From Minisyncoccota bacterium (lineage in GTDB: Bacteria; Patescibacteriota; Minisyncoccia; JAHIHE01; JAGLIN01): a stretch of 64,000 nucleotides of DNA. The stretch spans positions 6,071-70,070 of the forward strand of contig JAGLIM010000024.1 in NCBI GenBank assembly GCA_023142995.1, read 5' to 3'. Both the position numbers and the translations under genes were made by a program. The notes under the pieces were generated by a model, which ran no database searches, was not told where the DNA came from, and saw only the letters and a list, made by a program, of their open reading frames with translations. Shown one piece after another: positions 37,603 to 54,835 of this stretch (its first letter is position 1; every line of letters begins with the position of its first letter).

Positions 37603-37677
37603 GCCGCCTTCGTCTAACGGTTAGGACATCAGGTTCTCATCCTGGCAATAGGGGTTCGATTCCCCTAGGTGGTACCA
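37603..37677 (+). tRNA. tRNA-Glu (anticodon CUC)
   Basis: GCCGCCT acceptor pairs with AGGTGGT. D-arm GTCTAACGGTTAGGAC. Anticodon stem TCAGG/CCTGG with loop TTCTCAT. T-arm AGGGGTTCGATTCCCCT. 3' ACCA. Confidence 0.85.
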
Positions 37678-40028: not shown

Positions 40029-40092
40029 ATTTTTAATTTAGTTTTTAAACTGGCAATTTGGCAATGTATATATATAATGCCAAATTGCCGTT

Positions 40093-41160
40093 TCAGATTA
40101 AGACTTCTTGAGTTTTTTCTTCTTTGCTAAATTTTGAAAGATAGCATATTTTTGTGTTTCCTTCTCCCTTTTTTTCTAAGATAATATTTTGTATTAAAAG
40201 ATCTTTTATTGCGCTCATGATACTCTTATCGCCAATATCTTCCAGGTCTTTTACTTTCTTACATATCTCATTTTTAGCAAGTCCCCTCTGTTCTTTTTCT
40301 AGAACTGATAATACTATTTCTTTAGCTATATTTCTTTTGCTTATTTTTTCAGGACATACTCCTAGATAATTAATTTCTACTTTCCCTTCATTTTCTTCAA
40401 CAATAATATTGAATGGCTCAATTTCTTTATCGGTTCTAAGTTTAGCCTGTTCAACCAAAATTTTAGATCTGTCATCTTTATCTCTCTTGAGTGCTATATG
40501 CGCATCAACAGCTGCTGAAATATCAGAAGAGCCTCTTAGTCTATTTTGAGCGGTAGTTTTAGCGAAATATTCTTTTTTGTCGTGATGAGTTATTATTATG
40601 GTTTTACCATGTTGACAGAAAAATTTAATACATCTAAAGACTTCTGCCATTTGAGAAGCATCATTCTCTTCTGCTGTATTTACTCTCACTAAAGAATCAA
40701 TAAAAATAACATCTATTTCCTTTTGTTCGCAGATTTCTAATACGTTTTTAACTAATTCTTTTTTGGATACTAAAAATCCATTTTGCGATAAAAAATAAAT
40801 TGGAAGAGTTGATTCAGCCCCTAGTAATTTAAGCCTATCTCTTACCAATCTTAAATGATTCTCTTCGTCAATAATAAGAACTTTATTTTTTTCACATTTA
40901 AATTGACCAAATAAATTTTCTCCTTTGGCAATATCTAATGCCATTCTTAAAAGTAGCCAGGTTTTGAAACTCGCTGGAGCACCTGAAAGAATAGTTATTC
41001 CTTGGTGTGGGATAAGTTTTTCAATTACCCATTTATTTTCATGGAATTTCATGGAAAATAACTCATCCAAGCTAATAGGATTTAATTTCCATTTTTTCTG
41101 TTTTTCATCAATATTTTCTTTTTCTAACTCTAAAGTCTTTTTTTCATTTTCATTTTTCAT
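40093..41160 (-). CDS. RepA/DnaB-like replicative ATPase (AAA_25 family) of mobile elements
   Basis: Walker A GAPASFKT. Walker B LIIDEE-like region. C-terminal wHTH-like tail. Confidence 0.6.
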   Translation of the reverse strand: MKNENEKKTLELEKENIDEKQKKWKLNPISLDELFSMKFHENKWVIEKLIPHQGITILSGAPASFKTWLLLRMALDIAKGENLFGQFKCEKNKVLIIDEENHLRLVRDRLKLLGAESTLPIYFLSQNGFLVSKKELVKNVLEICEQKEIDVIFIDSLVRVNTAEENDASQMAEVFRCIKFFCQHGKTIIITHHDKKEYFAKTTAQNRLRGSSDISAAVDAHIALKRDKDDRSKILVEQAKLRTDKEIEPFNIIVEENEGKVEINYLGVCPEKISKRNIAKEIVLSVLEKEQRGLAKNEICKKVKDLEDIGDKSIMSAIKDLLIQNIILEKKGEGNTKICYLSKFSKEEKTQEVLI

Positions 41161-41173
41161 ATTTTTTAATTTA

Positions 41174-41773
41174 ATAATTATTTAAATATTCTACAGCTTC
41201 TTTAAACGAATAGTTATAAAGAAGTCTTACAAAATTTATTGAGTTACCCCCATAATTGCAACCAAAGCATCAACAAGAATTAGTTTCAAGATAGATATGG
41301 AAAGACGGGGTTTTTTCGTCATGGAGAGGACAGAGACAGACTAATGACTTACTTGTTCTTCTCAGTGGTTGATTTATAAGTGTTTCAATCGGGACCGCTA
41401 TGGCTTGTTGAATTTGATCTTCAGTTACCCATCCTTTCGGAGTTTTATTCGATGCGAACATTAATATTCCTTTAAGCTTTTTCGTTTGTTTTTCAATTTC
41501 AAGTAATTTTTGCACTTTATTTGCTTTTACCCATTCACGACAAAACCATTTTGAAAATTCATCGCCGTCTATGTTTTTTATAATAGTTAAATGTCTTTTG
41601 ATTTCTTTTGTTAAGCTTGCTTGTAATGTTTCATGTTCAATTATCTTATTTCGAATAACTTCCTTGGCCTCGGGAAATATATTCAAAAGTTCTTTATTGT
41701 TATATCTTGAAAGCGACATTCTCCATTGTTTTTCAACTTCATAATTGTATTCTTTTTTTGATTTGAATTTCAT
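41174..41773 (-). pseudogene. primase-type CHC2 zinc-finger protein interrupted by an in-frame TGA inside the zinc finger
   Basis: ..CPLHDEKTPSFHIYLETNSC-TGA-CFGCNYGGNSINFVRLLYNYSFKEAVEYL. The finger is split between the annotated ORF and the 32 in-frame codons after the stop. Confidence 0.5.
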
Positions 41774-41781
41774 ATAATGAT

Positions 41782-42030
41782 TTAACTGTTATAAATTCTT
41801 GTTTTAATATTTTTTATACAACTAGCGAAAGCAGTAGGTTCAACGCGTAATTGTTGCATGAAATATTTCTGAATTAAATTATCTAATTTCTTATCTTTTT
41901 TTATTAAGAAAATCGCTTTAGATGGATTTTGTTTGTCTATTGATTCGATTTGATAGCCGTAACAACAAAGCGTGGCACATAGAGAAAGATCACTTGATTT
42001 GTAATAATCGTTTTTTATTGATGTTTTCAT
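41782..42030 (-). CDS. hypothetical protein
   Basis: 82-aa ORF in the element replication module. Confidence 0.35.
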   Translation of the reverse strand: MKTSIKNDYYKSSDLSLCATLCCYGYQIESIDKQNPSKAIFLIKKDKKLDNLIQKYFMQQLRVEPTAFASCIKNIKTRIYNS

Positions 42031-42192
42031 GATAATTTTAGTTAATAATTATTTAATTAATTACAAGTATATTTTACTGTACTAGCTTAATACCTCTAGT
42101 GACCTCTATCTTCTTTTCGTAAAACAAAAAACAGCTCAAGTAAGCTGTTTCTTAATAAGTTATTAACACCAACCAAAAGTTAACCTAAAGTT

Positions 42193-42924: not shown

Positions 42925-43039
42925 ATAATTTAATATTAATTAACTTCATTCTAATACATTTTACGGGATTTATCAAAGAAATTTATCTCTGAACTTGTAA
43001 AATAATTATTTAAGAAGTATAATAATATTATAGTAAAAA

Positions 43040-43206
43040 AAACAATTTAAGTGCCTAACCCCGTAGTTTTCAACTACGGATATGGCATAAAAAACCAGTT
43101 AAGTATAAAGACGGCTATCTGTCTTGTTTCTACTTAACTGGTCATAATTCGAAAGGATTATGGGTTCTCCGAAAGGGGAGCCAGAGCAAGCGGGTAGCCT
43201 TTTTTG
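43040..43206 (+). ncRNA. GC-rich hairpin cluster: candidate replication origin/sso or small structured RNA
   Basis: CCGTAGTT-ttc-AACTACGG. CCAGTTAAGTA...TACTTAACTGG enclosing AGACGG-ctat-CTGTCT. Two GAAA-tetraloop hairpins (TAATTC-GAAA-GGATTA; GGTTCTCC-GAAA-GGGGAGCC). The cluster ends in a T-run and is embedded in AT-rich DNA between divergent genes. Confidence 0.3.
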
Positions 43207-43268: not shown

Positions 43269-44471
43269 ATGAAAAAGCTATTAATAGTCGTGGGAATATT
43301 ATTTGCCTTCAGTGCAAATGCAACAACAATTCCAGAGGGTGCAGTTATAAAGACTGCAAATAATCCAGATGTATATATTGTAAAATATAAGAATGGGAAG
43401 CAGTTTAAGAGGTTGGTTTTAAACCAGCAGGTTTTTGAAAGTTACGGTCATTTAAGATGGGAGGATATTTTAATTGTTGATCAAGCCGCGATAGATTCTT
43501 TCATGACATCTAATCTGGTAAGGGCTGACGGTCAAGCAAAAGTTTATCAATTAGTTGCTAATGGAGATATTGGTAGTAAACATTATTTAGATTTCAATAG
43601 CTATGATTTGGATTCAGTTTATACTATAAATTCAGTAGATTTTGGAAATTATGTAATAGGAGAAGTTAGAGGAATTACCAAAACAAGTCAAGAAAATATT
43701 AATACTGAAAGTACTGATGAAAAACTTCAAAAGATGATATCTATAAATAAAGAATGCATCAAAACGAATACTGAAAGAATAAAAGAAAATGAGGCGCTTG
43801 TTATAAAAATAAACAATGAAATAAATAAGTATTCAGAATATTCTTTAGTTCAACAGTCAGGGCAACAACTTATTAGCGAAATAAAAAATGATTCGCATAT
43901 ATCAAATAAAATAAGCAATATTTGTAATGAATTAGTTGACGAATCAATTGCTTTACTTGGTTTGGAAAAAAGTTCTTTCAGTAGAATTTCATATTTGACG
44001 GATCAATTTACTTCTTACACAAAACAACGAGATATGAATTATGATAAAATCGGTTCTATCATGAATTCTTATGTTTTGAATGTTAAATCAGCGTTGAAAC
44101 AGGAAATAGCAGAAAAGAGCGAAAAGCTGGAAAGAATGACAGCTTCCTATGAAGCCATAGAGCAATTAAATAGTTTAATTAGCGAAGCAGATAATCAGCT
44201 GAATATTTTAAGTGTGCAAATAGAGAAAAAAAATGCAGAGATAGAAAATGCAAAAAATGGACAGTGTCTTGCAACTACTGCTCAACTAGATAGAATATTA
44301 GCGAAATTAATACCAGAATATAATTCTTTGATTGAACAATATAATGTTTATCTTGAGATAAGAAGTGATCTTGTGTCTGTTGCTGGCAAGGTAAATGATT
44401 ACGGAAAATACGGAATTCCTCTTTCTTATAAAGACAAATTATTTTTACAAGATTTGGGAATAAACTTTTAA
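43269..44471 (+). CDS. secreted coiled-coil protein (signal peptide)
   Basis: MKKLLIVVGILFAFSANA signal. Coiled-coil-rich C-terminal half. Confidence 0.5.
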   Translation: MKKLLIVVGILFAFSANATTIPEGAVIKTANNPDVYIVKYKNGKQFKRLVLNQQVFESYGHLRWEDILIVDQAAIDSFMTSNLVRADGQAKVYQLVANGDIGSKHYLDFNSYDLDSVYTINSVDFGNYVIGEVRGITKTSQENINTESTDEKLQKMISINKECIKTNTERIKENEALVIKINNEINKYSEYSLVQQSGQQLISEIKNDSHISNKISNICNELVDESIALLGLEKSSFSRISYLTDQFTSYTKQRDMNYDKIGSIMNSYVLNVKSALKQEIAEKSEKLERMTASYEAIEQLNSLISEADNQLNILSVQIEKKNAEIENAKNGQCLATTAQLDRILAKLIPEYNSLIEQYNVYLEIRSDLVSVAGKVNDYGKYGIPLSYKDKLFLQDLGINF

Positions 44472-44480
44472 TTTATAAAT

Positions 44481-44921
44481 ATGGACAAAAACAGATTAAT
44501 TTTATCAATTGCAATTTTATCAGCAAGCATTATTTTGGGCGGTTTTTATTATGCGAGCCAAGTTAATAAACAGCAGTCCATTGAGAGACAACAAGCTATT
44601 AGAATAGAAGAAGATAAAAAAGCAGATTATTTTAAAAAGAAAATAGAGTGCGAAGAATATGCCGAAGGCATAAAAAAGGAAATAGATGAATCTAATGGAG
44701 GTCGTTATATTTCTATATATACAGAAACATTTGAAATGATTTTTTATAGTCCCAAAGATAATAGTTGTTTATATGTGACTCATCGTCTAACTGGAGGTAG
44801 GGAATACTTTATTTATAACGCATTAACAAAAAATAAAATAACTTCATTTCAATTTCCAGAGCAATGGGAAGATTATAAAGAATTTATTTTAGAATATTCA
44901 GATGGAGAGATAAGGTTGTAA
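44481..44921 (+). CDS. membrane-anchored hypothetical protein
   Basis: Single N-terminal TM. Confidence 0.45.
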   Translation: MDKNRLILSIAILSASIILGGFYYASQVNKQQSIERQQAIRIEEDKKADYFKKKIECEEYAEGIKKEIDESNGGRYISIYTETFEMIFYSPKDNSCLYVTHRLTGGREYFIYNALTKNKITSFQFPEQWEDYKEFILEYSDGEIRL

Positions 44922-44960: not shown

Positions 44961-45599
44961 ATGGCTATTTTTACACCACGAGGATTAAAAATAAGACTTC
45001 CGTTTAACTATGCATTTACCCTAGTTGCAAGACTTTATCCTAAAGTTGACGCTTTTAAGGTTTTAAAAACGACTGAAGGGCTAGAATCAATTCCTGTTTT
45101 AATAACTTTTATAGCTGGATTATTATCTTTCTATTTTAGATTGTCTTTATTCGAAATTGGTTTGTATGTTTTTATTGCTTCAGTTGTTGGCTTCCTTGTA
45201 ATGTTTTCTGGGTTGTATATAATTTCTAGACTAGATTACTTAGGAGTATTTTATAGTTATGTTTCGGGTTTTGGAATTTTGCTAATTTTGCTTATAGCAT
45301 ATGGATTTATAATGGTTGGCTGGCAAGGTGTAGTTGTCTTTTTTGTAGCAAAATTTTTAGCGGGAATTGTCAAAACGCCAATAGAAGTTAAGTTAATGAA
45401 ACAACACGGAGAATTAGGATTTCTTACTCTTTCAGAAGAACATTTTTTTAATGCATATAGAATTCATGCAAAGAGATTAGGAAAAACGACTGATATTGTC
45501 GTGTCAAACGAAGAGCTTGAAGAAGAAAATTGGAAATCAGTCTTTGAAGACTTAGCGAAGAAATGGCCAGAAGTGGTTAGAAGATTTACGATGGATTGA
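44961..45599 (+). CDS. hypothetical membrane protein
   Basis: 3-4 TM segments. Confidence 0.45.
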   Translation: MAIFTPRGLKIRLPFNYAFTLVARLYPKVDAFKVLKTTEGLESIPVLITFIAGLLSFYFRLSLFEIGLYVFIASVVGFLVMFSGLYIISRLDYLGVFYSYVSGFGILLILLIAYGFIMVGWQGVVVFFVAKFLAGIVKTPIEVKLMKQHGELGFLTLSEEHFFNAYRIHAKRLGKTTDIVVSNEELEEENWKSVFEDLAKKWPEVVRRFTMD

Positions 45600-45641: not shown

Positions 45642-46343
45642 ATGAATACAGAACAATTAAACAAATACTGCAAAAAGTTATGTGAAGACAGTATAGTTCA
45701 TTTTTTAAAAGATACTTGTAGTAAAGATATCTCGTGTCAGATGTCAATGCGTAATTTTATTTTGTCTCGTCGTGACTGGACGAAAAGTGATAAAGCAGAC
45801 GACATATTTGTGTTTATGGACAAACAATTTATCACCATAAATATGTTATGTTATAAATCAACGAATATACTTATAAATACGGTGATTTGTATTGCAAAAG
45901 TAGAATTAATTGATAAATCTGATAAAGATAATGAAGAAAATCTTGAAAACAATGTAAAAGAAATTGTTAAATGTGTTGAAGGTCAAGATTGGACTATTCC
46001 GTTTATACGTAAAAGATTGATTAATAAAAATAAGGAGAAAAATAAAGAAGAAGGTATATTTCCATTTACTGATGAGTTATTGAATCGTGGTTCGGCTTTA
46101 GATCGTCAGAAAAAATTAGACAGAGAAATAGAAAAGACTATTAAAAAAAGAAACTTGAACAAGAATCCAATTATATTTGAATTAGAGTTAACTGAAGAAC
46201 ATTATCCGGTCCTAAGGAGAAGAGCATTGAAGAGTCCAGAGATGTTAGAGAAAGAGATAAAGAGCATAGCGAACGCATGGCACGAAGGGGACGCGATAAG
46301 CGCGATGCAGGCACTAGAGAGCGACCTAGAGCATAGTGGTTAA
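45642..46343 (+). CDS. hypothetical protein
   Basis: 233-aa ORF upstream of the FtsZ-like gene. Confidence 0.45.
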   Translation: MNTEQLNKYCKKLCEDSIVHFLKDTCSKDISCQMSMRNFILSRRDWTKSDKADDIFVFMDKQFITINMLCYKSTNILINTVICIAKVELIDKSDKDNEENLENNVKEIVKCVEGQDWTIPFIRKRLINKNKEKNKEEGIFPFTDELLNRGSALDRQKKLDREIEKTIKKRNLNKNPIIFELELTEEHYPVLRRRALKSPEMLEKEIKSIANAWHEGDAISAMQALESDLEHSG

Positions 46344-46423: not shown

Positions 46424-47338
46424 ATGCTCAAATTAGAATCTAAAATTAATATAAAAGTTGTCTCGGTTGGAAATCGTGGTTGCAATGTCCTAGAAAGATT
46501 GAATAAGTTAAAGAAAAATGGTGTGGAGTTTTGCGCAATTTCCAAGGCAGGAAAAGCTTTTAACGGTTTAAGAATTGAAAATAAGATTGAACTTCCATAC
46601 AGTTTTGATCTGGACCATAATAAAAATATCGATAAAATGGCAAAGAGTGTTGTAAATGAAAAACAAAAGGAAATTATAGAACTAGCCAGAGGAACCGATA
46701 TAGTCTTTTTTGTTTGCAATTTAGCTAATAAAGCGTCAGTTCTTCAAACGAAAGAGATTGCACAAACATTCAAAAAAACTGGCTCACTAGTGTTTTTTGT
46801 TGGAGCAACTCCTTTTCATTTTGAAGGTAAAATAAGGCGAGAATTAGTAGAGAAGGCAAGAAAAGATTTAAATAAAGAAGTTGACGCTCTTTTGATTATT
46901 GACAATGAGAAAGTTGCTAAACGAGAAATAAGCGCAAACGAAGCATTTACACAAGTAGATAGTATTGTTTCTGGTGTAATAGATTCTATACTTGATATAA
47001 TCATCAAGGAAGGTATTATCAACATTGATTTTGCTGATTTGAAAACCATTGTTCAAAATTCCGGTGAAACATTTTTCAATAATTCCACTGGCTCAAAAAA
47101 AGAAATAGTCACTGTTATAAATAATCTTTTTTCAAAATCAAACCTGTCTATTCAGAAAAATAGTTTTAGTAAGGTCCTGTATGTTATTTATGCTGGAAAA
47201 AATCTATTAACAAACGAGGTAAAGCAAATTGGTGAAAAAATCCATCAAAAAACAAGGGGGAACGAGAAGATTATTTTCGGAATAGTAGAAGATAAAAAAA
47301 TGAAAGATAAATTAAAGATAGTGATGATTGGGAGTTAA
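46424..47338 (+). CDS. FtsZ/tubulin-fold homologue with degenerate GTP-binding loops but intact T7 loop
   Basis: Colinear with FtsZ: IKVVSVGNRGCN (vs IKVIGVGGGGGN), GVEFCAIS (GVEFFAVNT), TPFHFEGKIRR (KPFNFEGKKR), ALLIIDNEKV (SLITIPNDKL), NIDFADLKTIV (NVDFADVRTVM), IVMIGS (VVATGIG). The tubulin signature GGGTGTG is replaced by NLANKAS. Confidence 0.7.
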   Translation: MLKLESKINIKVVSVGNRGCNVLERLNKLKKNGVEFCAISKAGKAFNGLRIENKIELPYSFDLDHNKNIDKMAKSVVNEKQKEIIELARGTDIVFFVCNLANKASVLQTKEIAQTFKKTGSLVFFVGATPFHFEGKIRRELVEKARKDLNKEVDALLIIDNEKVAKREISANEAFTQVDSIVSGVIDSILDIIIKEGIINIDFADLKTIVQNSGETFFNNSTGSKKEIVTVINNLFSKSNLSIQKNSFSKVLYVIYAGKNLLTNEVKQIGEKIHQKTRGNEKIIFGIVEDKKMKDKLKIVMIGS

Positions 47339-47386: not shown

Positions 47387-47707
47387 ATGTTTTGGAGACA
47401 TAGATCAGGAAAAGACGGCAAAGATAAGTTTGGAAGAACTTTTGACGAGGCATGGCGAGAGCATGCTTCGTGGTGTCTTGATACATTTAAAAAGAATGAG
47501 CCTGATGACATAGCGAAAATGAATTATATTTTCAATAATTCTCCAACGCATGTAGGATGTCCTGCCGAACTTAGAAAACACTTATCAGGCAATGCGGTAT
47601 ATAATGCCTATCTTGAAATAAAAATGCATTTTAAATCATTTAAAAAATATTACACTCAAGAGGAGATTGACTCAATAAGCTACTATTTTGAAGATAATAC
47701 AGAATAA
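47387..47707 (+). CDS. hypothetical protein
   Basis: 106-aa ORF. Confidence 0.4.
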   Translation: MFWRHRSGKDGKDKFGRTFDEAWREHASWCLDTFKKNEPDDIAKMNYIFNNSPTHVGCPAELRKHLSGNAVYNAYLEIKMHFKSFKKYYTQEEIDSISYYFEDNTE

Positions 47708-48345: not shown

Positions 48346-48633
48346 ATGAAGCTAGTGGGAAGAAAAATACTGTACGATTACAAAGAAAAACACTCTGATT
48401 CTAAATTACATATTGCGTCATGGGAAGCTGAAGTTGAAGAAGCTCAATGGAATACTCCACATGAGCTTAAGCTTAGGTATCCTAAAGCCAGTATTTTAGG
48501 AAATTTACGAGTAGTTTTTGATATTTGTGGGAATAGGTATAGGTTATTGACTATAGTTAATTATAAAAACCAAATAGTATTTGTAGAAAAAATTGGTACA
48601 CATAAGGAATATGATAAATGGAAATTAGGTTAA
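48346..48633 (+). CDS. higB: type II toxin HigB (RelE/ParE superfamily)
   Basis: VVFDICGNRYRLLTIVNYKNQIVFVEKIGTHKEYDK matches the HigB core (ViDv.GN..RLI..i.f....i.vk.I..H.EYDK). Confidence 0.7.
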   Translation: MKLVGRKILYDYKEKHSDSKLHIASWEAEVEEAQWNTPHELKLRYPKASILGNLRVVFDICGNRYRLLTIVNYKNQIVFVEKIGTHKEYDKWKLG

Positions 48634-48637
48634 AAAT

Positions 48638-49861
48638 ATGAGTAAAATAAAAGTTATAAAAACTGAAAAAGATTATAAAGAAGCACTCGAATTACTTGAA
48701 GTGCTAATGATTCGTGATCCAGATCCTGATTCAGATGAGGGTGAACAGCTTGCTGTACTTAGTACTCTTATTCGAGATTATGAATCACAATCTTTTCCTA
48801 AAACACTTCCTGGCCCTATTGATGCTATTAAATTCAGAATGGAGCAAGCCAATCTGACGCCAGTGGACCTAATTCCATATATTGGGAGTAGAAGTAGAGT
48901 GTCGGAGATTTTGTCTGGTAAACGTCAACTCACTATGCAGATGGTGAGGGCAATAGAAACTGGTTTGGGGATTCCAGCTAAAGTTCTTATAAGGAAGCCT
49001 GAAATTGAAGAGAATACGGATATTGATTTAGAATATCAAGCATGGGATAATTGTCTCGTTTCTGAAATGGAATCACGAGGATATTTTGATAGTAGTTCAT
49101 TGAAGAAAAATATCAAGGCGGAATTGTTAAAAAATTTCTTTTCCCGAATGGGACCGCAAGCTCGAATTGTTGGAATGTTGCGTAAATCAAACTATAGATC
49201 ATCGCCCCTTACAGATAAACGAGCTTTAACTGCTTGGTCTACTCGAGTTATTCAGAAAGCAGGGGGTATAAAAGTTTCAAAAAAATATAAAGATGGAACT
49301 GTTACACCTGTTTTTATGCAAAATATTGTAAAATTAAGCGTAGAAGAAGACGGAGTTTTATTAGTTCAAAAATATCTAAAAAAATATGGAATTTTATTAA
49401 TCATTGAACCTCATTTTTCTAAAACTTACTTAGATGGAGCAGCAATTTTTGTAAATAAGGATAACCCGATTATTGGTTTAACCATAAGATATGATCGATT
49501 AGATAATTTTTGGTTCACATTAATGCATGAATTGGCACATATCTCTCTTCACTATAATGAAGATATTAGTCTTTTTTATGACGAAATTGAAGGAGTTACG
49601 ATTGATATAGACGATAAGGAAAAAGAGGCAGATGCATTAGCAGAAGAGTCATTATTACCTAGGGCAAAATGGGAAGTTAGTCCCGCTAGACTAATTCCTT
49701 CTTCTATGGCAGCAAATAGTTTAGCAAAAGAACTTGGTGTACATGTAGTAATAATTGCTGGCCAAATTAGACATAAAGGAAATAAGTACATCTATTTAAA
49801 TAAAATAATTAACAAAGAGAAAGTAAGGCATTACTTTTCTAATGAGAAATGGAATAAATAA
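48638..49861 (+). CDS. higA: HigA-like XRE-HTH antitoxin fused to ImmA/IrrE-type zinc metallopeptidase domain
   Basis: HTH SRSRVSEILSGKRQLTMQMVRAIETGLGIPAKVL. HExxH FTLMHELAHISLH in the C-terminal domain. Confidence 0.65.
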   Translation: MSKIKVIKTEKDYKEALELLEVLMIRDPDPDSDEGEQLAVLSTLIRDYESQSFPKTLPGPIDAIKFRMEQANLTPVDLIPYIGSRSRVSEILSGKRQLTMQMVRAIETGLGIPAKVLIRKPEIEENTDIDLEYQAWDNCLVSEMESRGYFDSSSLKKNIKAELLKNFFSRMGPQARIVGMLRKSNYRSSPLTDKRALTAWSTRVIQKAGGIKVSKKYKDGTVTPVFMQNIVKLSVEEDGVLLVQKYLKKYGILLIIEPHFSKTYLDGAAIFVNKDNPIIGLTIRYDRLDNFWFTLMHELAHISLHYNEDISLFYDEIEGVTIDIDDKEKEADALAEESLLPRAKWEVSPARLIPSSMAANSLAKELGVHVVIIAGQIRHKGNKYIYLNKIINKEKVRHYFSNEKWNK

Positions 49862-50948
49862 TATGTTTGATTTAAAACACTACGTACCAATATTGAAATG
49901 GAAGCGGGCCGAACAAGGTGCCCTAGCTGCTTTAAGCGTGGAACATAAAAAAAATATTACTCCGTTAATTCAGTTTGTTATGCCTAACCAAAAGAAAGAA
50001 GAACAACTCAAAGACGTTGTTCAAAGATTTACAGAGCAAATTTATCAAATTCCCGATAAAATTGGAGAGGTTTGGGGTAATACGCCTATTTTTGTCGATT
50101 TTAGCTTGCTGTTTACAACTGAGCTTAAAATTAAAAGTCTTAAATATATTTTAAAAGAAGGAAGAGATCCTGGAATTACTTTAATTCCGGTTATACATCT
50201 TAATGATGATAGTAAAATAAAAAAAGTTGCTTATTCGTTGTCGAAAGAAAATGGAAGTGGTTTATGTTTGCGAATAATTTGTTCAGACTTTTCTGATTTA
50301 ATGAAATTCAATAAAGATGTCGCAGATATACTTTCAGTATCTGGATTGTCAGAAAAAGATATAGATTTATTGGTAGACATAAAAGAAATAGAAGAAAAAG
50401 ATAATAAATGCGCTAAATATTTTGCGTTGGGGCAGAAAATTAATAATTTATCAAAGTGGAGAACTTTTACTTTTGCCAGTGGCGCTTTCCTTAAGGATTT
50501 ATCTAATTGTAAATTCGATGAAGAAAACCATATATTACGTCTTGATTGGGAAAATTGGAAGGATAAAATTACAAACCAGAAGTTGAATAGAAAGCCATCA
50601 TTTGCTGACTACACAATTCAGTATCCTATTTATGAAAATATTTCGCAATTTTTTCATCCAACCACAAGCATTAAATATACTTTAGAGAATGAATGGTTGA
50701 TTATGAAAGGGAAAAAGCAAAAATTTGAATTATATTTGGCCAGTGCCGCTGAGCTAGTAAAGGATAATAGATTTTATGGAGAAAATTTTAGCTTTGGTGA
50801 CAAATATATTGCTGACAAAGCAAGACATTTTATGGTATATATAAAAAATCCTGCAATCAAAGGTACAGGAAGCACTGAAACGTGGTTAAAGGCTGGAATT
50901 AATCACCATTTAGTATTAACGGCGAATCAGGTCGCCAGTTTACCCTAA
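49842..50948 (+). CDS. hypothetical protein, possibly sce7725-like partner of the convergent PD-(D/E)xK gene
   Basis: 368-aa ORF. Its 3' end overlaps the 3' end of the minus-strand gene by ~50 bp. Confidence 0.45.
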   Translation: MRNGINNMFDLKHYVPILKWKRAEQGALAALSVEHKKNITPLIQFVMPNQKKEEQLKDVVQRFTEQIYQIPDKIGEVWGNTPIFVDFSLLFTTELKIKSLKYILKEGRDPGITLIPVIHLNDDSKIKKVAYSLSKENGSGLCLRIICSDFSDLMKFNKDVADILSVSGLSEKDIDLLVDIKEIEEKDNKCAKYFALGQKINNLSKWRTFTFASGAFLKDLSNCKFDEENHILRLDWENWKDKITNQKLNRKPSFADYTIQYPIYENISQFFHPTTSIKYTLENEWLIMKGKKQKFELYLASAAELVKDNRFYGENFSFGDKYIADKARHFMVYIKNPAIKGTGSTETWLKAGINHHLVLTANQVASLP

Positions 50949-51513
50949 AGAATATTTTTTCTCTTACTTTGTTTCCAAGAGTTTGCTGATCAAAAACTGT
51001 TGATAATTTTTGATAAATTACATCTCTTGGTTTTGAATACATTCCCTTAGCTTCATTTATTTCTTCTAAAAGTATTAGTGCTTCTTCTTTCCATAAAAGC
51101 CTTGCAACAGAAACTCTGTCTTGATCTTTATTATATTCTTCTTCTCTAATACGGTTAAACATAACTGAACCATTTGTATTAATTTTTGCTAGAATAATAC
51201 CCCACCAACTTGGTGCCATTTTTATAGTATCATATAGATGACTTTTACCAACAACTAAAGTAATCTTATTAAATACTGAATTATAGATTTCAATTTGATT
51301 CGGCAGTCTTTGTAAAGTATCTTGATCACTTTTTATTTCATAGCCGTGCATGATTCCATTGACAACTGCAATATCAATTCTGGCGTTACCATGTTGAACA
51401 CCCATTTCTTCAATTATCCTTACTCTTCTATCATTTAAATGACGTTTTTTTAGAATTTCCCTGAGAACTGAGCGTATCATTATATCGTTTGTAGAAATTG
51501 TTTCGTGAGACAT
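50899..51513 (-). CDS. PD-(D/E)xK nuclease-fold protein (sce7726-like)
   Basis: GNARIDIAVVNGIMHGYEIKSDQDTLQRL = D...(E)IK restriction-endonuclease-like core. Confidence 0.5.
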   Translation of the reverse strand: MSHETISTNDIMIRSVLREILKKRHLNDRRVRIIEEMGVQHGNARIDIAVVNGIMHGYEIKSDQDTLQRLPNQIEIYNSVFNKITLVVGKSHLYDTIKMAPSWWGIILAKINTNGSVMFNRIREEEYNKDQDRVSVARLLWKEEALILLEEINEAKGMYSKPRDVIYQKLSTVFDQQTLGNKVREKIFFRVNWRPDSPLILNGD

Positions 51514-51645
51514 ATAAATTTATCTTTATAGTTATTTATATATAAATAAGCTTACTTATATTTTATCATAAATTCGACAATAAAAGAACAGCGCCTTATT
51601 TAATTAAAATCTAATAATTATTAATATGTTCAATAAATCTATATT

Positions 51646-52008
51646 ATGAATCAAGCTCAAATTCCTCCTGAATTTTGGTATCAATCGCTACAAGCTCTAG
51701 GCGAGGGACCAAAAATACTAGCTTCAATTCTAATGGAAACAACAAAACAATTATTGTCGTCTTATTGGCAATGTATTTTATTTCTCATATTATTTACAGC
51801 ACTAATAAAAATTTTAGCGGGTAAAATTGGTAGTTTGATATATAATTTAATTTATTTTGGAATTTTATTTGTAATAATAGCAATAAGCGGATTTGAAATA
51901 TTATTTAATCCTTATTTTGATATTCTTTATTTGTTATTTCGTCCTGTTTCATTTTTTTTGACGGGGTGTATATTGGATAAATTGAAGCCGAGACATGGAA
52001 TTTATTGA
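51646..52008 (+). CDS. small hypothetical membrane protein
   Basis: Three hydrophobic segments. Confidence 0.35.
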   Translation: MNQAQIPPEFWYQSLQALGEGPKILASILMETTKQLLSSYWQCILFLILFTALIKILAGKIGSLIYNLIYFGILFVIIAISGFEILFNPYFDILYLLFRPVSFFLTGCILDKLKPRHGIY

Positions 52009-52044
52009 AGGATATAATTGATTATAATTCATTGAATCATCAAA

Positions 52045-52548
52045 ATGAAAACAAAGATCACAGTTATCAAAGATGATATAACAAAACTCAAAGTTGATGC
52101 TATTGTTAATGCAGCCAACAAAACTTTATTGGGTGGTGGAGGAGTTGATGGCGCGATTCATAATGAGGCCGGACCTAAATTACTAGAAGAGTGTAAAACA
52201 CTTGGTGGTTGCGAAGTGGGTGAGGCGAAAATAACAAAGGGATATAATTTACCTGCAAAATATATCATCCACACAGTCGGTCCGATTCATGGCCATGAAG
52301 ACGGAAAAGAGGATTCTTTACTTTTTTCTTGTTATAAAAATAGTTTAATGATTGCGAAGGAAAAAGACATTAAAACAATCGCTTTCTCTTGTATATCAAC
52401 AGGAGTCTTCAGGTTTCCAAAGGACAAAGCAGCAGAAATCGCCATGGGTACTGTAAAAAGTTTTATTCAAGAATATCCAGATGTATTCGAAGAGATTACA
52501 TTCGTGACTTTCTCGGAATCGGATTTTGATATTTATAAAGAAAACTAA
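52045..52548 (+). CDS. macro-domain protein (ADP-ribose binding / O-acetyl-ADP-ribose deacetylase family)
   Basis: [23 protein letters not shown]...[15 protein letters not shown]. Confidence 0.85.
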
Positions 52549-52628
52549 AATTATCAAAAAAGCTTTCTTGTGAAGTTTTTAAGTTATTATGAATGTGAGA
52601 ATAATTTAAATTATATTAACCTAAAAAG

Positions 52629-53972
52629 ATGTTCAATAAACCTATATCACAATTAAATTTGGAAGATATTCAAATACTCATTGATAATCAGGAAAAGGAA
52701 AGTTTGATCTTGGAATACAAACAAGAATTAACTGGAAACGATAAAGAGAAGAAAGAAATATCCAAAGATGTTTCTGCTATAGCTAACACCTGTGGCGGTT
52801 ATTTAATTATTGGTATAGAAGAGGAGGACGGGAAGGCTGCTTCAATATCTGGAACACAAGGGAAAATTGGCAGACAACCGGTTGAGGAATGGATTGAAAG
52901 TGTTCTTATCTCTAATGTCCGACCAAGATTAACAATTACTCCAAAAATTATAAGTATTGAAGCTGATCGTGATAAAGTAGTTGTAGTTATTCATATTCCA
53001 CAAAGCACTAGACGACCACATATGGTTACAATTGGTGGCAAGAACGCATATTATAGACGTCATAATTATCAAGCGACTTATGCTGATGAACATGAGGTTC
53101 GATCAATGTTTTTGGAAAACAAAAGCTCAAGTGATGAAATGAATATATTTTTGAATACACGTAATCTTATAGATTCTTCGAAAGATAATTTTGCTATTAC
53201 ACCATTATCCTCTTTGCTATTAAAATCCTTAAGAGAGACAAGAGAGCTTCCAGAGGGATTTAGTGGTGATCCTTTTGTTTTATTTTCAGCTTGTCCTCGA
53301 TACCTAGAAGAACGGGTTGATATTGCTTCAACGGATTTTCGGTCATGGCTTGATGAAAATGACAAGATAAACCTTTTTGATCTTGATATTGATTTTTTGG
53401 ATTATAACAAAGTAATTTCTGCGGACAGTATCCGTTCTTTAACCGAAGTACAAAGCGAGAAAAGAGAAGATAGATTGCCCTACAGATATGTTGAAATATT
53501 TCGAAATGGATATATAGAAAACGGCATAAGCAATGAACTAATGTGGTCTAATAACAAAATGGGACTTATGTTTCAGATTGCCTATTTTACAGCTTCTTTT
53601 TGGTTGTTCATGAAGTTTATTAAAAATATGTATGAACACATAGAATATATTGATGAAGTTAATTTGATAGTCGCGTTGTCTGATATTGATAATGTAACAC
53701 TTCATGGTTTTGGTAATAAAAATGAAAATACAAAATGGGCTAATCCTTACGATGTGTTTCATACGTCAAATATACCAACATGTAAACAGAAAAACGTAAA
53801 GATAGAAAGAAATATTGTAATAGCTGAGTTAAATGATGAATACATAGAAGAAATTGTAAAAGAAGTTTCAAGAAGAGTATCTAACGCTTTCGGGGAAAGC
53901 ATAGCAAAATGTTTTGATGATCAGGGTGTTTTTAATCGTGATCAACTAAGGGGTTTTAGAAATGTTCAATAA
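52629..53972 (+). CDS. AlbA_2 (Schlafen-like) domain protein with C-terminal domain of unknown function
   Basis: N-terminal ESLILEYKQEL...DVSAIANTCGGYLIIGIEEEDGK matches the AlbA_2 / divergent AAA_4 signature. Confidence 0.55.
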   Translation: MFNKPISQLNLEDIQILIDNQEKESLILEYKQELTGNDKEKKEISKDVSAIANTCGGYLIIGIEEEDGKAASISGTQGKIGRQPVEEWIESVLISNVRPRLTITPKIISIEADRDKVVVVIHIPQSTRRPHMVTIGGKNAYYRRHNYQATYADEHEVRSMFLENKSSSDEMNIFLNTRNLIDSSKDNFAITPLSSLLLKSLRETRELPEGFSGDPFVLFSACPRYLEERVDIASTDFRSWLDENDKINLFDLDIDFLDYNKVISADSIRSLTEVQSEKREDRLPYRYVEIFRNGYIENGISNELMWSNNKMGLMFQIAYFTASFWLFMKFIKNMYEHIEYIDEVNLIVALSDIDNVTLHGFGNKNENTKWANPYDVFHTSNIPTCKQKNVKIERNIVIAELNDEYIEEIVKEVSRRVSNAFGESIAKCFDDQGVFNRDQLRGFRNVQ

Positions 53973-54084
53973 ACTAAATCTGTTCTTGTGCAGATAGATT
54001 TGAGATATGAATATATTCATCCGTGCACACAATGCGGAGAAATAAGATAAAATTTATCAAAATATTATAATAAAAAATAACACG

Positions 54085-54276
54085 ATGATTTCCGAGGAAC
54101 AACTTAAAAAATACAAAGATATTTACAGAAAGAAATTTGGTAAGGAAATATCAGATCAAGAAGCGCTAGAGCAAGGAACAAAATTGATTAGTCTTATGGA
54201 AATTATATATAAACCAATAACTAAGAATAAATTTAAAGCAGTTCAAAAAAGGAGAAGAGAAACAGGTGATATATAG
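54085..54276 (+). CDS. small basic hypothetical protein
   Basis: 63-aa ORF. Confidence 0.25.
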   Translation: MISEEQLKKYKDIYRKKFGKEISDQEALEQGTKLISLMEIIYKPITKNKFKAVQKRRRETGDI

Positions 54277-54705
54277 TTACGAAGTAAAAAAGCAGAATAT
54301 TAAGCACAAACAAGCTTATCCAACTCCTTTATTCCTACATCCCATTTCTTAATATCTACTAATAAGGGGTTTGAACTCTCAATGCTAGGGTGTACTAGTT
54401 CAGAAAGTGGCTCTTGAAACAAAATTTGGGAGCTACCTTTTTTTATTTAAAATCTTTTAAAATGTTATCCATTAATGTGTTCTAAGTGTAAAATAGGTCA
54501 GAATGTGTTAATATGATTATAAAGAAATTTTAAAAAACTTTGATTTATGCTCTTTCGTTTTTATACTCCTCCGCTTTTAAAATTCTAATCTTGTTATTTT
54601 AAGATAATATCTCTTTGTCTAAAGATTGGTTGATTCTTAATATAGACTTGCGGCGTATTATATAAAATTATTTAAATAAATGAGTATAGATCTGTAATTA
54701 TTGCT

Positions 54706-54828
54706 ATAAATGTCACAATTAGCCATTGAAAATGTCGCAATTAAATGCCTTATTTCAAAGGTTAAACCGATTTTATTGTATATAATGTCACAATTAGCCC
54801 TTGAAAATGTCGCAATTAAATGTTAGAC
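54706..54828 (+). repeat. two ~40-bp direct repeats, each an internal TGTC(A/G)CAATTA dyad: candidate operator of the Fic-HTH gene
   Basis: aatgtcacaattagcc.ttgaaaatgtcgcaattaaatg at 54709 and 54788, ending 8 nt before the ATG. Confidence 0.5.
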
Positions 54829-54835
54829 TATTAAT

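What the first reader, a model, noticed from the sequence alone, without database searches (positions are those of the whole stretch)
46424..47338. Mobile-element-borne FtsZ homologue lacking GTP-binding loops but retaining the T7 synergy loop (possible filament capper or division inhibitor)
The 304-aa protein is colinear with the FtsZ core (GVEFCAIS, TPFHFEGKIRR, LLIIDNEK, NIDFADLKTIV, IVMIGS). The T1 loop reads GNRGCN instead of GGGGGN. The tubulin signature GGGTGTG is replaced by NLANKAS. So it probably cannot bind GTP, yet keeps the T7 loop N-x-D-x-x-D that inserts into the nucleotide pocket of the next subunit. Such a protein could cap host FtsZ protofilaments at one end. It sits inside the putative integrated element, amid secreted/membrane proteins, not in the dcw cluster. 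The dcw cluster is truncated after murF by this element.
Basis: partly seen in the sequence, partly recalled or inferred. Interest (0 to 1): 0.75.

Follow-up and report, generated by a model that had tools for sequence, protein, structure and literature searches.

The report
One-faced FtsZ pseudo-GTPase on mobile islands
A candidate-phyla-radiation (CPR) bacterium carries, on an integrated mobile island, a well-conserved copy of the cell-division protein FtsZ that has lost its own GTP-binding site but kept the face that activates GTP hydrolysis in a neighbouring FtsZ, so it probably acts on the host's division protein rather than forming filaments itself.

Summary
ORF 46424-47338 (+, 304 aa) is an FtsZ homologue (PDB E=1e-30; AF2 pLDDT 90; TM 0.86 to S. 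aureus FtsZ). Its T1 loop reads GNRGCN, its T4 signature NLANKAS, and its T7 loop NIDFAD is intact.

It belongs to a small CPR-only family of about 16 clusters at 50% identity.
- Every member lacks the T2, T3 and T4 nucleotide loops, yet N-x-D-x-x-D is invariant.
- The T7-side face keeps about 80% of canonical similarity; the nucleotide-side face keeps about 17%.
- dN/dS is about 0.1, so the gene is not decaying.
- It is never near ftsA (0 of 21 loci). It always sits in variable mobile or defence-type islands with no obligate partner.

In the window the island runs from tRNA-Glu and a serine recombinase to about 56 kb. In the closest subfamily a LOOT RNA heads the gene string that ends with this gene.

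Best reading (inferred, untested): a subunit with one working polymerisation face, which docks its T7 face on GTP-bound host FtsZ. It would cap or sequester host FtsZ and stimulate its GTPase.

The polarity literature puts such a protein at the non-growing end or on monomers. The claim that the island truncated the dcw cluster is not supported.

The parts
46424..47338 (+). FtsZ-derived pseudo-GTPase gene (304 aa), the subject of the finding
   Evidence: ORF. FtsZ homology at E=1e-30 over residues 8-302. AF2 pLDDT 89.7 and TM 0.86 to SaFtsZ. Family of about 16 clusters at 50% identity. dN/dS about 0.1 among family members.
46469..46486 (+). Degenerate T1 loop, GNRGCN (canonical GGGGGN)
   Evidence: The family consensus is G-[NG]-R-G-x-N. 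An Arg replaces the second or third Gly in most members.
46718..46738 (+). Degenerate T4 tubulin signature, NLANKAS (canonical GGGTGTG)
   Evidence: All seven canonical positions G103-G111 are lost in every family member.
47021..47038 (+). Intact T7 synergy loop, NIDFAD (N-x-D-x-x-D)
   Evidence: N, D and D are invariant in all family members, including representatives found by an HMM search that did not use a T7 pattern.
43047..43187 (+). LOOT RNA (Rfam RF03000) at the head of the co-directional gene string that contains the FtsZ-like gene
   Evidence: Rfam 84 bits against a gathering score of 46. The same RNA lies 1.6-3.3 kb upstream on the same strand in L008, L012, L022, L009 and L006. 97% of structure cells pair and 32 of 42 pairs change on both sides. 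A promoter-like site lies at 42995-43023.
43269..44471 (+). 400-aa protein with an N-terminal signal peptide and coiled coil; first ORF after the LOOT RNA
   Evidence: Sequence. No Pfam or PHROG hit. Weak SMC/LmuB-like coiled-coil hit. Homologues occupy the same position in L012 and L009.
44481..44921 (+). 146-aa protein with an N-terminal membrane anchor
   Evidence: Sequence. A homologue lies directly upstream of the FtsZ-like gene in L009.
44961..45599 (+). 212-aa multi-pass membrane protein; no homologue in other loci
45642..46343 (+). 233-aa cytoplasmic protein directly upstream; an occasional partner
   Evidence: Its N-terminal 126 aa are 44% identical to the ORF directly downstream of the FtsZ-like gene in a Magasanikbacteria MAG (L001), where the two FtsZ-likes are 46% identical. 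It is otherwise very rare, with 2 database hits.
47387..47707 (+). 106-aa ORF directly downstream; an orphan
37603..37677 (+). tRNA-Glu (CUC), the probable integration site and left border of the island
   Evidence: ARAGORN and Rfam. The 3' end of the recombinase ORF runs into the tRNA gene on the opposite strand.
37637..39145 (-). Large serine recombinase (502 aa as called on public contigs)
   Evidence: Resolvase, Recombinase and Zn_ribbon_recom domains.
40093..41773 (-). Replication module: AAA_25 helicase-like protein (40093-41160) and a CHC2 primase zinc-finger protein (41270-41773)
48346..50948 (+). HigB toxin, HTH-M78 peptidase and Beta protein (PD-Lambda-2-like defence or TA module)
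   Evidence: Pfam. PADLOC PD-Lambda-2_C at 1.9e-39. An HTH-M78 homologue also lies about 1.9 kb downstream of the FtsZ-like gene in L015.
50899..55888 (.). Remaining island cargo: P4 cII-like gene (50899-51513, minus strand), Macro (52045-52548), Schlafen/AlbA_2 (52629-53972) and HTH-Fic (54836-55888). The right border lies between 55.9 and 57.1 kb.
   Evidence: purD at 57151 is the first clear housekeeping gene.

Best explanation
The gene encodes a member of a CPR-restricted family of FtsZ-derived pseudo-GTPases that keep only one working polymerisation face.

Shown here. The fold is FtsZ. The four nucleotide-binding loops (T1-T4), R142 and F182 are replaced by non-glycine residues. The T3 loop is unconstrained even within the family. 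The T7-side face (T7, H8, S9, H10) is conserved almost as well as in real FtsZ, including the catalytic N-x-D-x-x-D. The gene is under strong purifying selection. It travels as accessory cargo on different mobile or defence islands and is never found with ftsA.

Inferred. The protein cannot bind GTP in the canonical way and cannot accept a subunit on its nucleotide-side face, so it cannot propagate a filament. Catalytic T7 residues are only useful when inserted into the nucleotide pocket of another subunit. The protein is therefore predicted to dock through its T7 face onto the GTP-bearing face of the host's own FtsZ, either on free GTP-monomers or at the nucleotide-exposing (non-growing) filament end. 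Docking would complete the active site and stimulate hydrolysis. It would also block that face from docking on a growing end or annealing with another filament. The protein would thus act as a self-derived cap, sequestering agent or GTPase activator of host FtsZ.

Most speculative step. The mobile element uses this to delay or tune host division, in the same functional niche as the prophage inhibitors Kil, DicB and CbtA. In the closest subfamily, expression would be set by the promoter-proximal LOOT RNA.
For: FtsZ homology and fold. Loss of T1-T4, R142 and F182 with retention of G204-K214 across the family. The same pattern holds in representatives found by an exhaustive HMM search that used no T7 pattern. 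Face asymmetry: similarity of family to canonical FtsZ, relative to similarity within canonical FtsZ, is 0.80 for the T7-side elements and 0.17 for the nucleotide-side elements (Mann-Whitney p=1.8e-7); within-family conservation of T3 is 0.14 against 2.87 in canonical FtsZ. Purifying selection: dN/dS is 0.08-0.15 at dS of about 0.5. Not the division FtsZ: ftsA is absent from 0 of 21 family loci but present in 17 of 17 class-2 loci and adjacent in 23 of 43 canonical loci. The score is 126 bits against the 295-bit equivalog cut-off. Only about 15 of 185,579 species representatives carry a member. Mobile or defence context. Roles of T7 D210/D213 and of the interface regions, and the growing end: PMC8936486 and PMC9897490. 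Precedent for an FtsZ-like domain that inhibits Z-ring assembly: ARC3, as described in 10.1101/2024.01.08.574726 and PMC12232670.
Against: No binding, GTPase or phenotype data exist; every mechanistic step is inferred. Loss of GTP binding is deduced from motifs and was not measured or modelled with ligand. According to PMC8936486, top-interface FtsZ mutants, the closest engineered analogue, are far less toxic than bottom-interface mutants, so this protein may be a weak modulator rather than an inhibitor. T5 (PFxFEG) and T1/H1 on the nucleotide-side face remain conserved within the family, which leaves room for a different ligand or partner there. Presence of a GTP-competent FtsZ in the same genome was not demonstrated. 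No defence or phage family model matches the protein. No partner gene is conserved.
Confidence: 0.45

Rival explanations
1. Toxin or effector of a toxin-antitoxin or abortive-infection type module. The pseudo-FtsZ still poisons FtsZ, but its physiological role would be island addiction or phage defence. It would be held in check by a neighbouring small protein or by the LOOT RNA. This differs from the best explanation in its purpose, not in its molecular target.
For: Family members sit beside Type I R-M systems with Fic (L001, L020, L023), HigB/HTH-M78 (window, L015), a HicB-like gene (L006), and NERD-like, DUF3800-like and PD-(D/E)xK-like genes. FtsZ-targeting type IV toxins such as CbtA exist on cryptic prophages (PMC5371832, listed). 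A structured RNA recurs upstream.
Against: There is no PADLOC hit. No neighbour is conserved that could serve as an antitoxin. LOOT is absent from the more distant subgroups. Being near defence genes is expected for any island cargo.
Confidence: 0.15
2. Neofunctionalised scaffold unrelated to host FtsZ. The FtsZ fold would be reused to bind another ligand or protein, for example one of the co-encoded membrane or secreted proteins, or to form nucleotide-independent homo-oligomers. T7 conservation would then be structural or would serve a new partner.
For: T1/H1 and T5 on the nucleotide-side face are well conserved within the family (scores 2.40 and 2.91), and an Arg is nearly fixed in T1, which suggests a remodelled site rather than a merely decayed one. 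The gene is co-directional with membrane and secreted ORFs. A 233-aa or 144-aa neighbour has co-diverged with it in two distant loci.
Against: The intervening ORFs differ from locus to locus. Retention of the exact catalytic N-x-D-x-x-D, together with H8 and S9 at near-canonical similarity, is hard to explain without a nucleotide-bearing FtsZ partner. T3 and the H6-H7 loop, which a homotypic longitudinal contact would need, are unconstrained.
Confidence: 0.22
3. A functional but unusual division FtsZ or ordinary paralogue that still binds GTP by a non-canonical pocket and polymerises.
For: The full-length fold is preserved with high model confidence. The gene is under purifying selection. Tail-less FtsZs are normal in CPR. 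Santana-Molina et al. 2023 note an uncharacterised divergent second FtsZ copy in some CPR genomes (PMC9871819).
Against: All glycine-rich phosphate loops, the Mg/gamma-phosphate T2 and T3 residues, R142 and the base-stacking F182 are lost. The gene is never linked to ftsA or the dcw cluster. Its distribution is sporadic and island-borne. Truncated copies occur in L012, L022 and L043.
Confidence: 0.06
4. A decaying pseudogene copy of ftsZ with no function.
For: The GTP motifs are lost, and some loci carry deleted or fragmentary copies (L012, L022, L043).
Against: dN/dS is 0.08-0.15. Length stays at 292-319 aa without frameshifts across members that are only 30-100% identical. The T7 face is strongly conserved.
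Confidence: 0.02

Closest known systems
Bacterial FtsZ (TIGR00065; for example S. aureus and Aquifex FtsZ, and the tail-less ftsA-linked FtsZ of Parcubacteria and Saccharibacteria)
   Same: Same two-domain fold, colinear over the whole core (TM 0.86). The T5 PFxFEG motif, T7 N-x-D-x-x-D, H8 and S9 are retained. The closest non-family sequences are the tail-less CPR FtsZs at 29-32% identity.
   Different: The T1-T4 nucleotide loops, R142 and F182 are lost. It scores 126 bits against the 295-bit equivalog cut-off. It is never next to ftsA or in the dcw cluster. It is island-borne and sporadic.
[quoted passage not shown]
   Same: An FtsZ-derived module acts on genuine FtsZ as a negative regulator. 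A paper cited in PMC12232670 (Shaik et al. 2018) reports that ARC3 enhances FtsZ2 GTPase activity, which is what a T7 donor would do. That the ARC3 FtsZ-like domain lacks the GTP motifs is from my own knowledge and was not checked here.
   Different: ARC3 is a eukaryotic multidomain protein within the chloroplast Min system. This protein is a stand-alone 304-aa bacterial protein on mobile islands. No homology beyond the shared superfamily was tested.
Mobile-element and stress-induced FtsZ inhibitors (lambda Kil, Qin DicB, CP4-44 CbtA, SulA, MciZ, MipZ)
   Same: Same proposed niche: an accessory gene, often prophage-borne, that blocks a polymerisation face of FtsZ by capping or sequestration (PMC9897490; PMC8936486; PMC5371832).
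   Different: Those proteins are unrelated in sequence to FtsZ, and the structurally characterised ones (SulA, MciZ, MipZ, MinC) bind the T7/H10 face of FtsZ. This protein is itself an FtsZ and would bind the opposite, nucleotide-bearing face.
Engineered top-interface FtsZ mutants (for example E. coli L178E; PDB 6UMK appears)
   Same: They are monovalent subunits with an intact T7 face and a defective nucleotide-side interface.
   Different: The mutants still bind GTP and are only weakly toxic (as summarised in PMC8936486). The natural family has evolved under selection for about 70% sequence divergence and may have higher affinity.
TubZ/PhuZ and the FtsZl1/Tubulin_2 families
   Same: They are accessory members of the tubulin/FtsZ superfamily carried on plasmids, phages or islands.
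   Different: Those families keep their GTP motifs and polymerise. There is no Tubulin_2 hit. Phage tubulin and FtsZ models are much more distant (TM 0.79 or less, 16% identity or less). No member was found in IMG/VR, INPHARED or PLSDB.

Membership tests
FtsZ/tubulin superfamily (Pfam PF00091 and PF12327) | Two-domain FtsZ fold: Rossmann-like N-domain, helix H7, and C-terminal GTPase-activating domain | tested here: met
   PF00091 scores 35.7 bits (cut-off 33) and FtsZ_C 25.8 bits (cut-off 27, just below). PDB E=1e-30. AF2 and Foldseek give TM 0.86.
Cell-division FtsZ (TIGR00065 equivalog) | Score above the curated equivalog cut-off | tested here: not met
   126.3 bits against a cut-off of 295.2.
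Cell-division FtsZ (TIGR00065 equivalog) | Glycine-rich T1 loop (GGGGGN) and tubulin signature T4 (GGGTG[ST]G), plus the T2 N-T-D and T3 G-x-G-x-G nucleotide contacts | tested here: not met
   The gene has GNRGCN and NLANKAS. N43, T44, D45, G67, G69, G103-G111, R142 and F182 are lost in 75-100% of family members.
Cell-division FtsZ (TIGR00065 equivalog) | T7 synergy loop N-x-D-x-x-D | tested here: met
   NIDFAD in this gene; N, D and D are invariant in the family.
Cell-division FtsZ (TIGR00065 equivalog) | Genomic linkage to ftsA or the dcw cluster | tested here: not met
   ftsA is present in 0 of 21 family loci within +/-10 kb, against 17 of 17 tail-less CPR FtsZ loci and adjacency in 23 of 43 canonical loci.
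Cell-division FtsZ (TIGR00065 equivalog) | C-terminal linker and conserved tail peptide (PAFLRK-like) for FtsA/ZipA binding | tested here: not met
   The protein ends at the last core strand (IVMIGS). This is not decisive, because ftsA-linked CPR FtsZs also lack the tail. One family member, P0043, keeps DVPAFLRRK.
Cell-division FtsZ (TIGR00065 equivalog) | GTP binding, GTP-dependent polymerisation and GTPase activity | not testable with these tools
   This needs purified protein. Motif loss predicts a negative result.
FtsZl1 / Tubulin_2 (Makarova and Koonin 2010) | Match to PF13809 and the characteristic N/C extensions and operon partners | tested here: not met
   There is no PF13809 hit even at E up to 10, and the protein has no extensions.
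TubZ/PhuZ segregation tubulins | GTP-binding tubulin-like protein with an adjacent TubR-type adaptor or centromere, on a plasmid or phage | tested here: not met
   The GTP motifs are absent. No conserved adjacent adaptor was found. Phage tubulin models are distant. No member was found in phage, plasmid or viral collections.
ARC3-type FtsZ-derived assembly inhibitors (functional class) | FtsZ-like domain without a functional GTP site | tested here: met
   at motif level only.
ARC3-type FtsZ-derived assembly inhibitors (functional class) | Direct binding to FtsZ and inhibition or destabilisation of Z-ring assembly | not testable with these tools
   This requires interaction and polymerisation assays or heterologous expression.
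ARC3-type FtsZ-derived assembly inhibitors (functional class) | Middle domain and MORN regulatory domain | tested here: not met
   The protein is 304 aa with a single module and no other domains.
Known anti-phage defence systems (PADLOC-DB) and phage protein families (PHROGs) | Match to a component model | tested here: not met
   There are no hits for the FtsZ-like protein. Only the nearby Beta protein matches PD-Lambda-2_C.
Integrated mobile element (island) cargo | Flanking tRNA, a site-specific recombinase, a replication module, and variable presence among relatives | tested here: met
   tRNA-Glu, serine recombinase, AAA_25 helicase, primase finger and P4 cII-like gene are present. Homologues lie in different islands elsewhere. 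However, no att repeats and no empty site were found, so the exact borders and current mobility are unproven.

The most novel reading that the evidence does not exclude
Mobile elements of CPR bacteria have domesticated the host's own division protein into a monovalent 'half-subunit'. This would be a natural T7-donor-only FtsZ that caps or sequesters host FtsZ and triggers its GTPase, giving the element control over host cell division. In one subfamily it would be expressed under a LOOT RNA leader. That would be a new class of cytoskeletal poison derived from its own target, and a natural reagent for probing the kinetic polarity of FtsZ filaments.
Probability: 0.3. Interest if true: 0.8.

Novelty: new variant of a known kind. 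Interest (0 to 1): 0.64.

Why it matters
If the inferred mechanism holds, this is a natural, evolutionarily refined version of the one-faced FtsZ mutants used to work out how FtsZ filaments grow and treadmill. It would also be the first bacterial example of an FtsZ-derived regulator of FtsZ; the only precedent I know is plant ARC3.

It would show that mobile elements in the little-studied CPR bacteria manipulate host division with a copy of the target itself. It would supply a tool for testing which filament end matters for Z-ring dynamics, because it binds the face opposite to the one bound by SulA, MciZ, MinC and MipZ.

Independently of mechanism, the work defines three things:
- a conserved pseudo-GTPase subfamily of the tubulin/FtsZ superfamily;
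- the fact that tail-less FtsZ is the ftsA-linked primary form in many CPR lineages;
- a first genomic context for the orphan LOOT RNA, namely CPR mobile islands at the head of a gene string ending in this gene.

Tried and rejected
1. **Conserved partner gene.** All-against-all BLASTP and phmmer of neighbours in 19 non-redundant loci found none that is universal. The ORFs directly upstream are unrelated to each other (NERD-like, DUF3800-like, PD-(D/E)xK-like, SppA-like). The only adjacent family shared by distant loci, the window's 233-aa ORF and L001's 144-aa ORF, is very rare.

2. **Apparent fusion proteins.** P0041, P0046 and P0056 turned out to be tandem canonical FtsZ duplications, not family members.

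3. **Island borders.** No att-like direct repeats were found. No empty site was found among contigs carrying the identical Mur ligase or purD.

4. **Viral, phage or plasmid origin.** There were no members in IMG/VR, INPHARED or PLSDB. The BFVD viral structures are more distant than cellular FtsZ.

5. **Defence or phage family assignment.** PADLOC and PHROGs gave no hit for the protein.

6. **A canonical ftsZ in the same genome.**
   - There is none in the 64-kb window or in the 10 kb upstream of it.
   - The look-up from the downstream end failed.
   - The best canonical hit, P0025, comes from an unrelated sample.

7. **Promoter and terminator scan.** It was uninformative: 43 sites against 34 +/- 6.5 expected.

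8. **LOOT loci at large.** A strict pattern scan found one extra copy on a contig too short to judge and none in viral contigs.

9. **The missing C-terminal tail as evidence of non-canonical function.** I rejected this after finding that ftsA-linked CPR FtsZs are also tail-less.

10. **The 'Gammaproteobacteria' labels of L018, L020 and L021.** These are probably a binning artefact. GC is about 42%, like the Magasanikbacteria loci, and L018 is 92% identical to the Magasanikbacteria L019 copy.
Full report
**1. Observation**

It is an unambiguous FtsZ homologue.
- phmmer against all PDB sequences gives about 50 FtsZ chains. The best is Aquifex FtsZ at E=1.2e-30, aligned over residues 8-302.
- NCBIfam's ftsZ equivalog model matches at 126 bits, far below its 295-bit cut-off.
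- Pfam Tubulin is just above threshold, and FtsZ_C just below.

The quoted motifs are all present:

| Loop | Sequence here | Canonical | Residues |
|---|---|---|---|
| T1 | GNRGCN | GGGGGN | 16-21 |
| T4 | NLANKAS | GGGTGTG | 99-105 |
| T5 | TPFHFEGK | retained | 129-136 |
| T7 | NIDFAD | retained | 200-205 |

An AlphaFold2 model built on an alignment of relatives is confident (pLDDT 89.7, pTM 0.89). Its best matches among solved structures are all FtsZ, with TM 0.86 to S. aureus FtsZ at 25% identity. Phage tubulin and FtsZ-like models are clearly more distant.

**2. The family**

A word-indexed search of 5.8 billion proteins found 24 relatives. All are about 304 aa and 45-100% identical, and those with names come from Parcubacteria or Magasanikbacteria. 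Identity then drops to canonical FtsZs at 25-28%.

An exhaustive HMM search of 1.84 billion cluster representatives shows the same gap. About 16 representatives score 199-493 bits, and ordinary FtsZ begins near 165 bits. Three long proteins among the hits (P0041, P0046, P0056) proved to be tandem canonical FtsZs.

A scan of 185,579 species-representative genomes found members in only about 15 MAGs, all CPR (Moraniibacteriota, Parcubacteria, Magasanikbacteria, 'Patescibacteria group'). Three contigs labelled Gammaproteobacteria have a GC content, and a 92% identity to a Magasanikbacteria copy, that suggest mis-binning.

The window itself matches a 250-kb scaffold. An identical neighbouring protein is annotated in a 'Candidatus Pacebacteria' MAG.

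**3. What is lost and what is kept**

I examined the positions that are at least 85% conserved in canonical FtsZ, in E. coli numbering.
- **Lost in the family:** N43, T44 and D45 (T2); G67 and G69 (T3); every glycine of T4 (G103-G111); R142; and F182.
- **Partly kept:** N165.
- **Kept:** the whole block G204-K214 (T7 and the start of H8) is 94-100% retained.

Part of the genome scan used a T7 peptide pattern, so I re-checked with the representatives from the pattern-free HMM search. All lack a glycine-rich T4, and all keep N-x-D-x-x-D, for example NVDFADLK, NVDYADLK, NVDFNDFK and NVDWNDIR.

I then used the interface regions defined in S. aureus FtsZ filaments (PMC8936486). The upper subunit contributes T7, H8, S9 and H10. 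The lower subunit contributes H1/H2, T3, T5, the H6-H7 loop and the nucleotide. Results:
- The family's T7-side elements keep 80% of the similarity that canonical FtsZs show to each other. The nucleotide-side elements keep 17% (p=1.8e-7).
- T3 is essentially unconstrained even within the family (0.14 against 2.87).
- S9 is more conserved within the family than among canonical FtsZs.

The gene is under strong purifying selection. dN/dS is 0.08-0.15 for pairs with dS of about 0.5. A few loci hold deleted or fragmentary copies (L012, L022, L043).

**4. Context**

In the window, the order of features is as follows.
- mraZ, rsmH, an ftsL-like gene, ftsI and a Mur ligase.
- tRNA-Glu. The 3' end of a large serine recombinase gene runs into this tRNA on the opposite strand.
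- A zinc-finger protein, an AAA_25 helicase-like protein, a CHC2 primase-finger protein and a DUF5659 protein.
- A LOOT RNA, then four ORFs without family matches: one secreted coiled-coil protein, two membrane proteins and one cytoplasmic protein.
- The FtsZ-like gene, followed by an orphan ORF.
- HigB, an HTH-M78 protein and a Beta protein (PD-Lambda-2-like), a P4 cII-like gene, Macro, Schlafen/AlbA_2 and HTH-Fic.
- A shikimate-kinase-like gene and purD.

This is a convincing integrated island of about 18-19 kb. However, I found no att repeats and no empty site.

Elsewhere the gene sits in different islands:
- beside a Type I R-M system with Fic genes;
- after a tyrosine integrase;
- after a TraG/VirD4-like protein, AntA and DUF2283;
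- after an AAA_11/12-DUF559 helicase and before a HicB-like gene;
- beside NERD-like, DUF3800-like and PD-(D/E)xK-like genes.

No neighbour is universally conserved. None of the family loci contains ftsA within +/-10 kb.

By contrast, a second class that I noticed always has ftsA in the locus. These are FtsZs of 306-314 aa, tail-less but with intact GTP motifs, from Parcubacteria and Saccharibacteria. ftsA is present in 17 of 17 such loci and directly adjacent in 12. So tail-less FtsZ is the normal division protein in many CPR lineages. These proteins are also the closest non-family relatives of the pseudo-GTPase, at 29-32% identity. One family member, P0043, still carries a DVPAFLRRK tail, and looks like an evolutionary intermediate.

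**5. The LOOT RNA**

Rfam finds a LOOT RNA at 43052-43182, scoring 84 bits against a gathering score of 46. The same RNA lies on the same strand, 2.1-3.3 kb upstream of the FtsZ-like gene, in L008, L012 and L022.

A covariance model built from these four copies finds weaker copies at 1.6-2.8 kb upstream in L009 and L006, plus a second copy in L008. It finds only one doubtful hit (18 bits, E=0.28) in about 1.1 Mb of control loci around ordinary ftsZ genes.

The structure shows abundant compensatory change: 97% of cells pair, and 32 of 42 pairs change on both sides. That alignment is fitted to the model, so the counts lean toward the structure.

In each locus the RNA sits roughly 30-220 nt before the first ORF of a co-directional string whose inner genes vary and which contains the FtsZ-like gene near its end. 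A promoter-like site precedes it in the window.

A strict pattern scan found only one further copy. It lies in a TA/RhuM-type island on a contig too short to judge. The link therefore holds for the closest subfamily only, and its meaning (leader, sRNA or island landmark) is open.

**6. Mechanism**

*Shown:* an FtsZ fold in which one longitudinal face is preserved and the other has degenerated; purifying selection; island-borne, ftsA-independent distribution.

*Inferred, step 1.* Without T1-T4, R142 and F182, the protein cannot bind GTP canonically. With T3 and the H6-H7 loop unconstrained, it cannot receive a subunit on that face. It is therefore monovalent and cannot propagate a filament.

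*Inferred, step 2.* The T7 aspartates only act by reaching into another subunit's nucleotide pocket (PMC8936486). Their invariance implies a GTP-bearing FtsZ partner, most simply the host's FtsZ.

*Inferred, step 3.* Binding would occlude the GTP face of monomers, which is the face they use to join the growing end, or would cap the nucleotide-exposing end. It would prevent annealing and would complete the catalytic site, acting like a GTPase activator.

*Speculative, step 4.* The island uses this to delay or tune division, or as a toxin or abortive-infection effector.

*An important caveat.* The literature places filament growth at the T7-exposing end and reports that top-interface mutants are much less toxic than bottom-interface mutants. 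The protein may therefore be a modulator rather than a potent inhibitor.

**7. Comparison with known systems**

The protein belongs to the FtsZ/tubulin superfamily, but it fails the defining tests for cell-division FtsZ:
- the equivalog score;
- the T1-T4 motifs;
- linkage to ftsA.

It is not Tubulin_2/FtsZl1, TubZ or PhuZ.

[quoted passage not shown] The nearest niche is that of prophage and stress inhibitors of FtsZ, but those are unrelated proteins that bind the opposite face.

Santana-Molina et al. 2023 mention an uncharacterised 'divergent copy of FtsZ' in some CPR genomes. I could not tell whether they meant this family or the tail-less class. I found no description of an FtsZ pseudo-GTPase, of its island context or of a LOOT link in the searchable literature.

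**8. Verdict**

- The fold, the loss of GTP-binding motifs, T7 retention and the island context all hold.
- The claim that the island truncated the dcw cluster does not hold. The far flank is a shikimate-kinase-like gene and purD, and ftsA-ftsZ lies in a separate locus in a CPR relative.
- The capping or inhibition mechanism remains an untested, though well-motivated, inference.

I rate it a new variant of a known kind, with interest 0.64.

Noticed in passing
window 43047-43187 (+); also L008 5474-5610 and 4858-4941, L012 4098-4233, L022 6533-6668, L009 8274-8378, L006 7087-7171, L100 1313-1448: LOOT RNA (Rfam RF03000, an orphan sRNA motif) occurs on CPR mobile or defence islands. In six loci it heads the co-directional gene string that contains the FtsZ-like gene. 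It shows strong covariation. There is no convincing copy in about 1.1 Mb of control loci. In L012 it directly follows two tRNA genes.
   Followed up: partly
L024-L033, L035, L038-L040, L044, L045, L073 (for example L027 10001-10936): This is a class of short (306-314 aa) FtsZs in Parcubacteria and Saccharibacteria MAGs with intact GTP motifs but no C-terminal linker or FtsA-binding tail. ftsA is present in all 17 loci and directly adjacent in 12. These look like the primary division FtsZs, which raises the question of how they are tethered to FtsA or the membrane.
   Followed up: partly
P0043 (358 aa, from the representative search): A family-like protein has degenerate T1 and T4 (GVGSLGSN, SLGREIN) but still carries a canonical C-terminal tail (DVPAFLRRK). 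It appears to be an evolutionary intermediate between FtsZ and the pseudo-GTPase family.
   Followed up: no
window 48346-50948 (+): The HigB-like toxin, HTH-M78 peptidase and Beta protein (PF14350) form a three-gene module. Its last gene matches PADLOC PD-Lambda-2_C at 1.9e-39, so this is a PD-Lambda-2-like defence system in a CPR genome. An HTH-M78 homologue lies at a similar distance downstream of the FtsZ-like gene in L015.
   Followed up: partly
window 37603-37677 (+) and 37637-39145 (-): The 3' end of the large serine recombinase ORF overlaps the tRNA-Glu gene by about 40 nt on the opposite strand, and its C-terminus reads ...RGIEPLLPG. This suggests integration into the 3' part of the tRNA gene. 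No matching repeat was found at the other end of the island.
   Followed up: partly
window 39672-42924 (-) and 50899-51513 (-): The island backbone resembles a phage satellite. It has a zinc-finger protein, an AAA_25 helicase-like protein, a CHC2 primase zinc-finger protein, DUF5659 and a P4 cII-like protein, with defence-type cargo (Macro, Schlafen/AlbA_2, HTH-Fic) between the backbone and the chromosome.
   Followed up: no
window 45642-46343 (+) and L001 10905-11339 (+): A rare protein family with no Pfam match lies adjacent to the FtsZ-like gene in two distant loci: upstream in the window and downstream in a Magasanikbacteria MAG. Its divergence (44% identity) matches that of the two FtsZ-likes (46%), so it may be an occasional partner.
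   Followed up: partly
L018, L020, L021 (contigs CAZCHJ010000021.1, CAZNAO010000039.1, CAYWFD010000043.1): These contigs are labelled 'uncultured Gammaproteobacteria' MAGs but carry family members up to 92% identical to a Magasanikbacteria copy, and have about 42% GC like the Magasanikbacteria loci. They are probably CPR contigs binned with another organism, possibly a host.
   Followed up: partly
P0041 (840 aa), P0046 (826 aa), P0056 (744 aa); also L036 and L081: Some proteins consist of two complete, GTP-competent FtsZ cores fused in tandem, and some loci carry two adjacent ftsZ genes. They are unrelated to the finding but unusual.
   Followed up: no
window 359-1039 (+) and 1438-5031 (+): A LexA-like repressor gene is followed by a 1197-aa TPR/PIN-TPR-GreABC-type protein at the start of the window. 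The region further upstream on the public contig holds methyltransferases and an HNH protein, so it may be another variable region.
   Followed up: no
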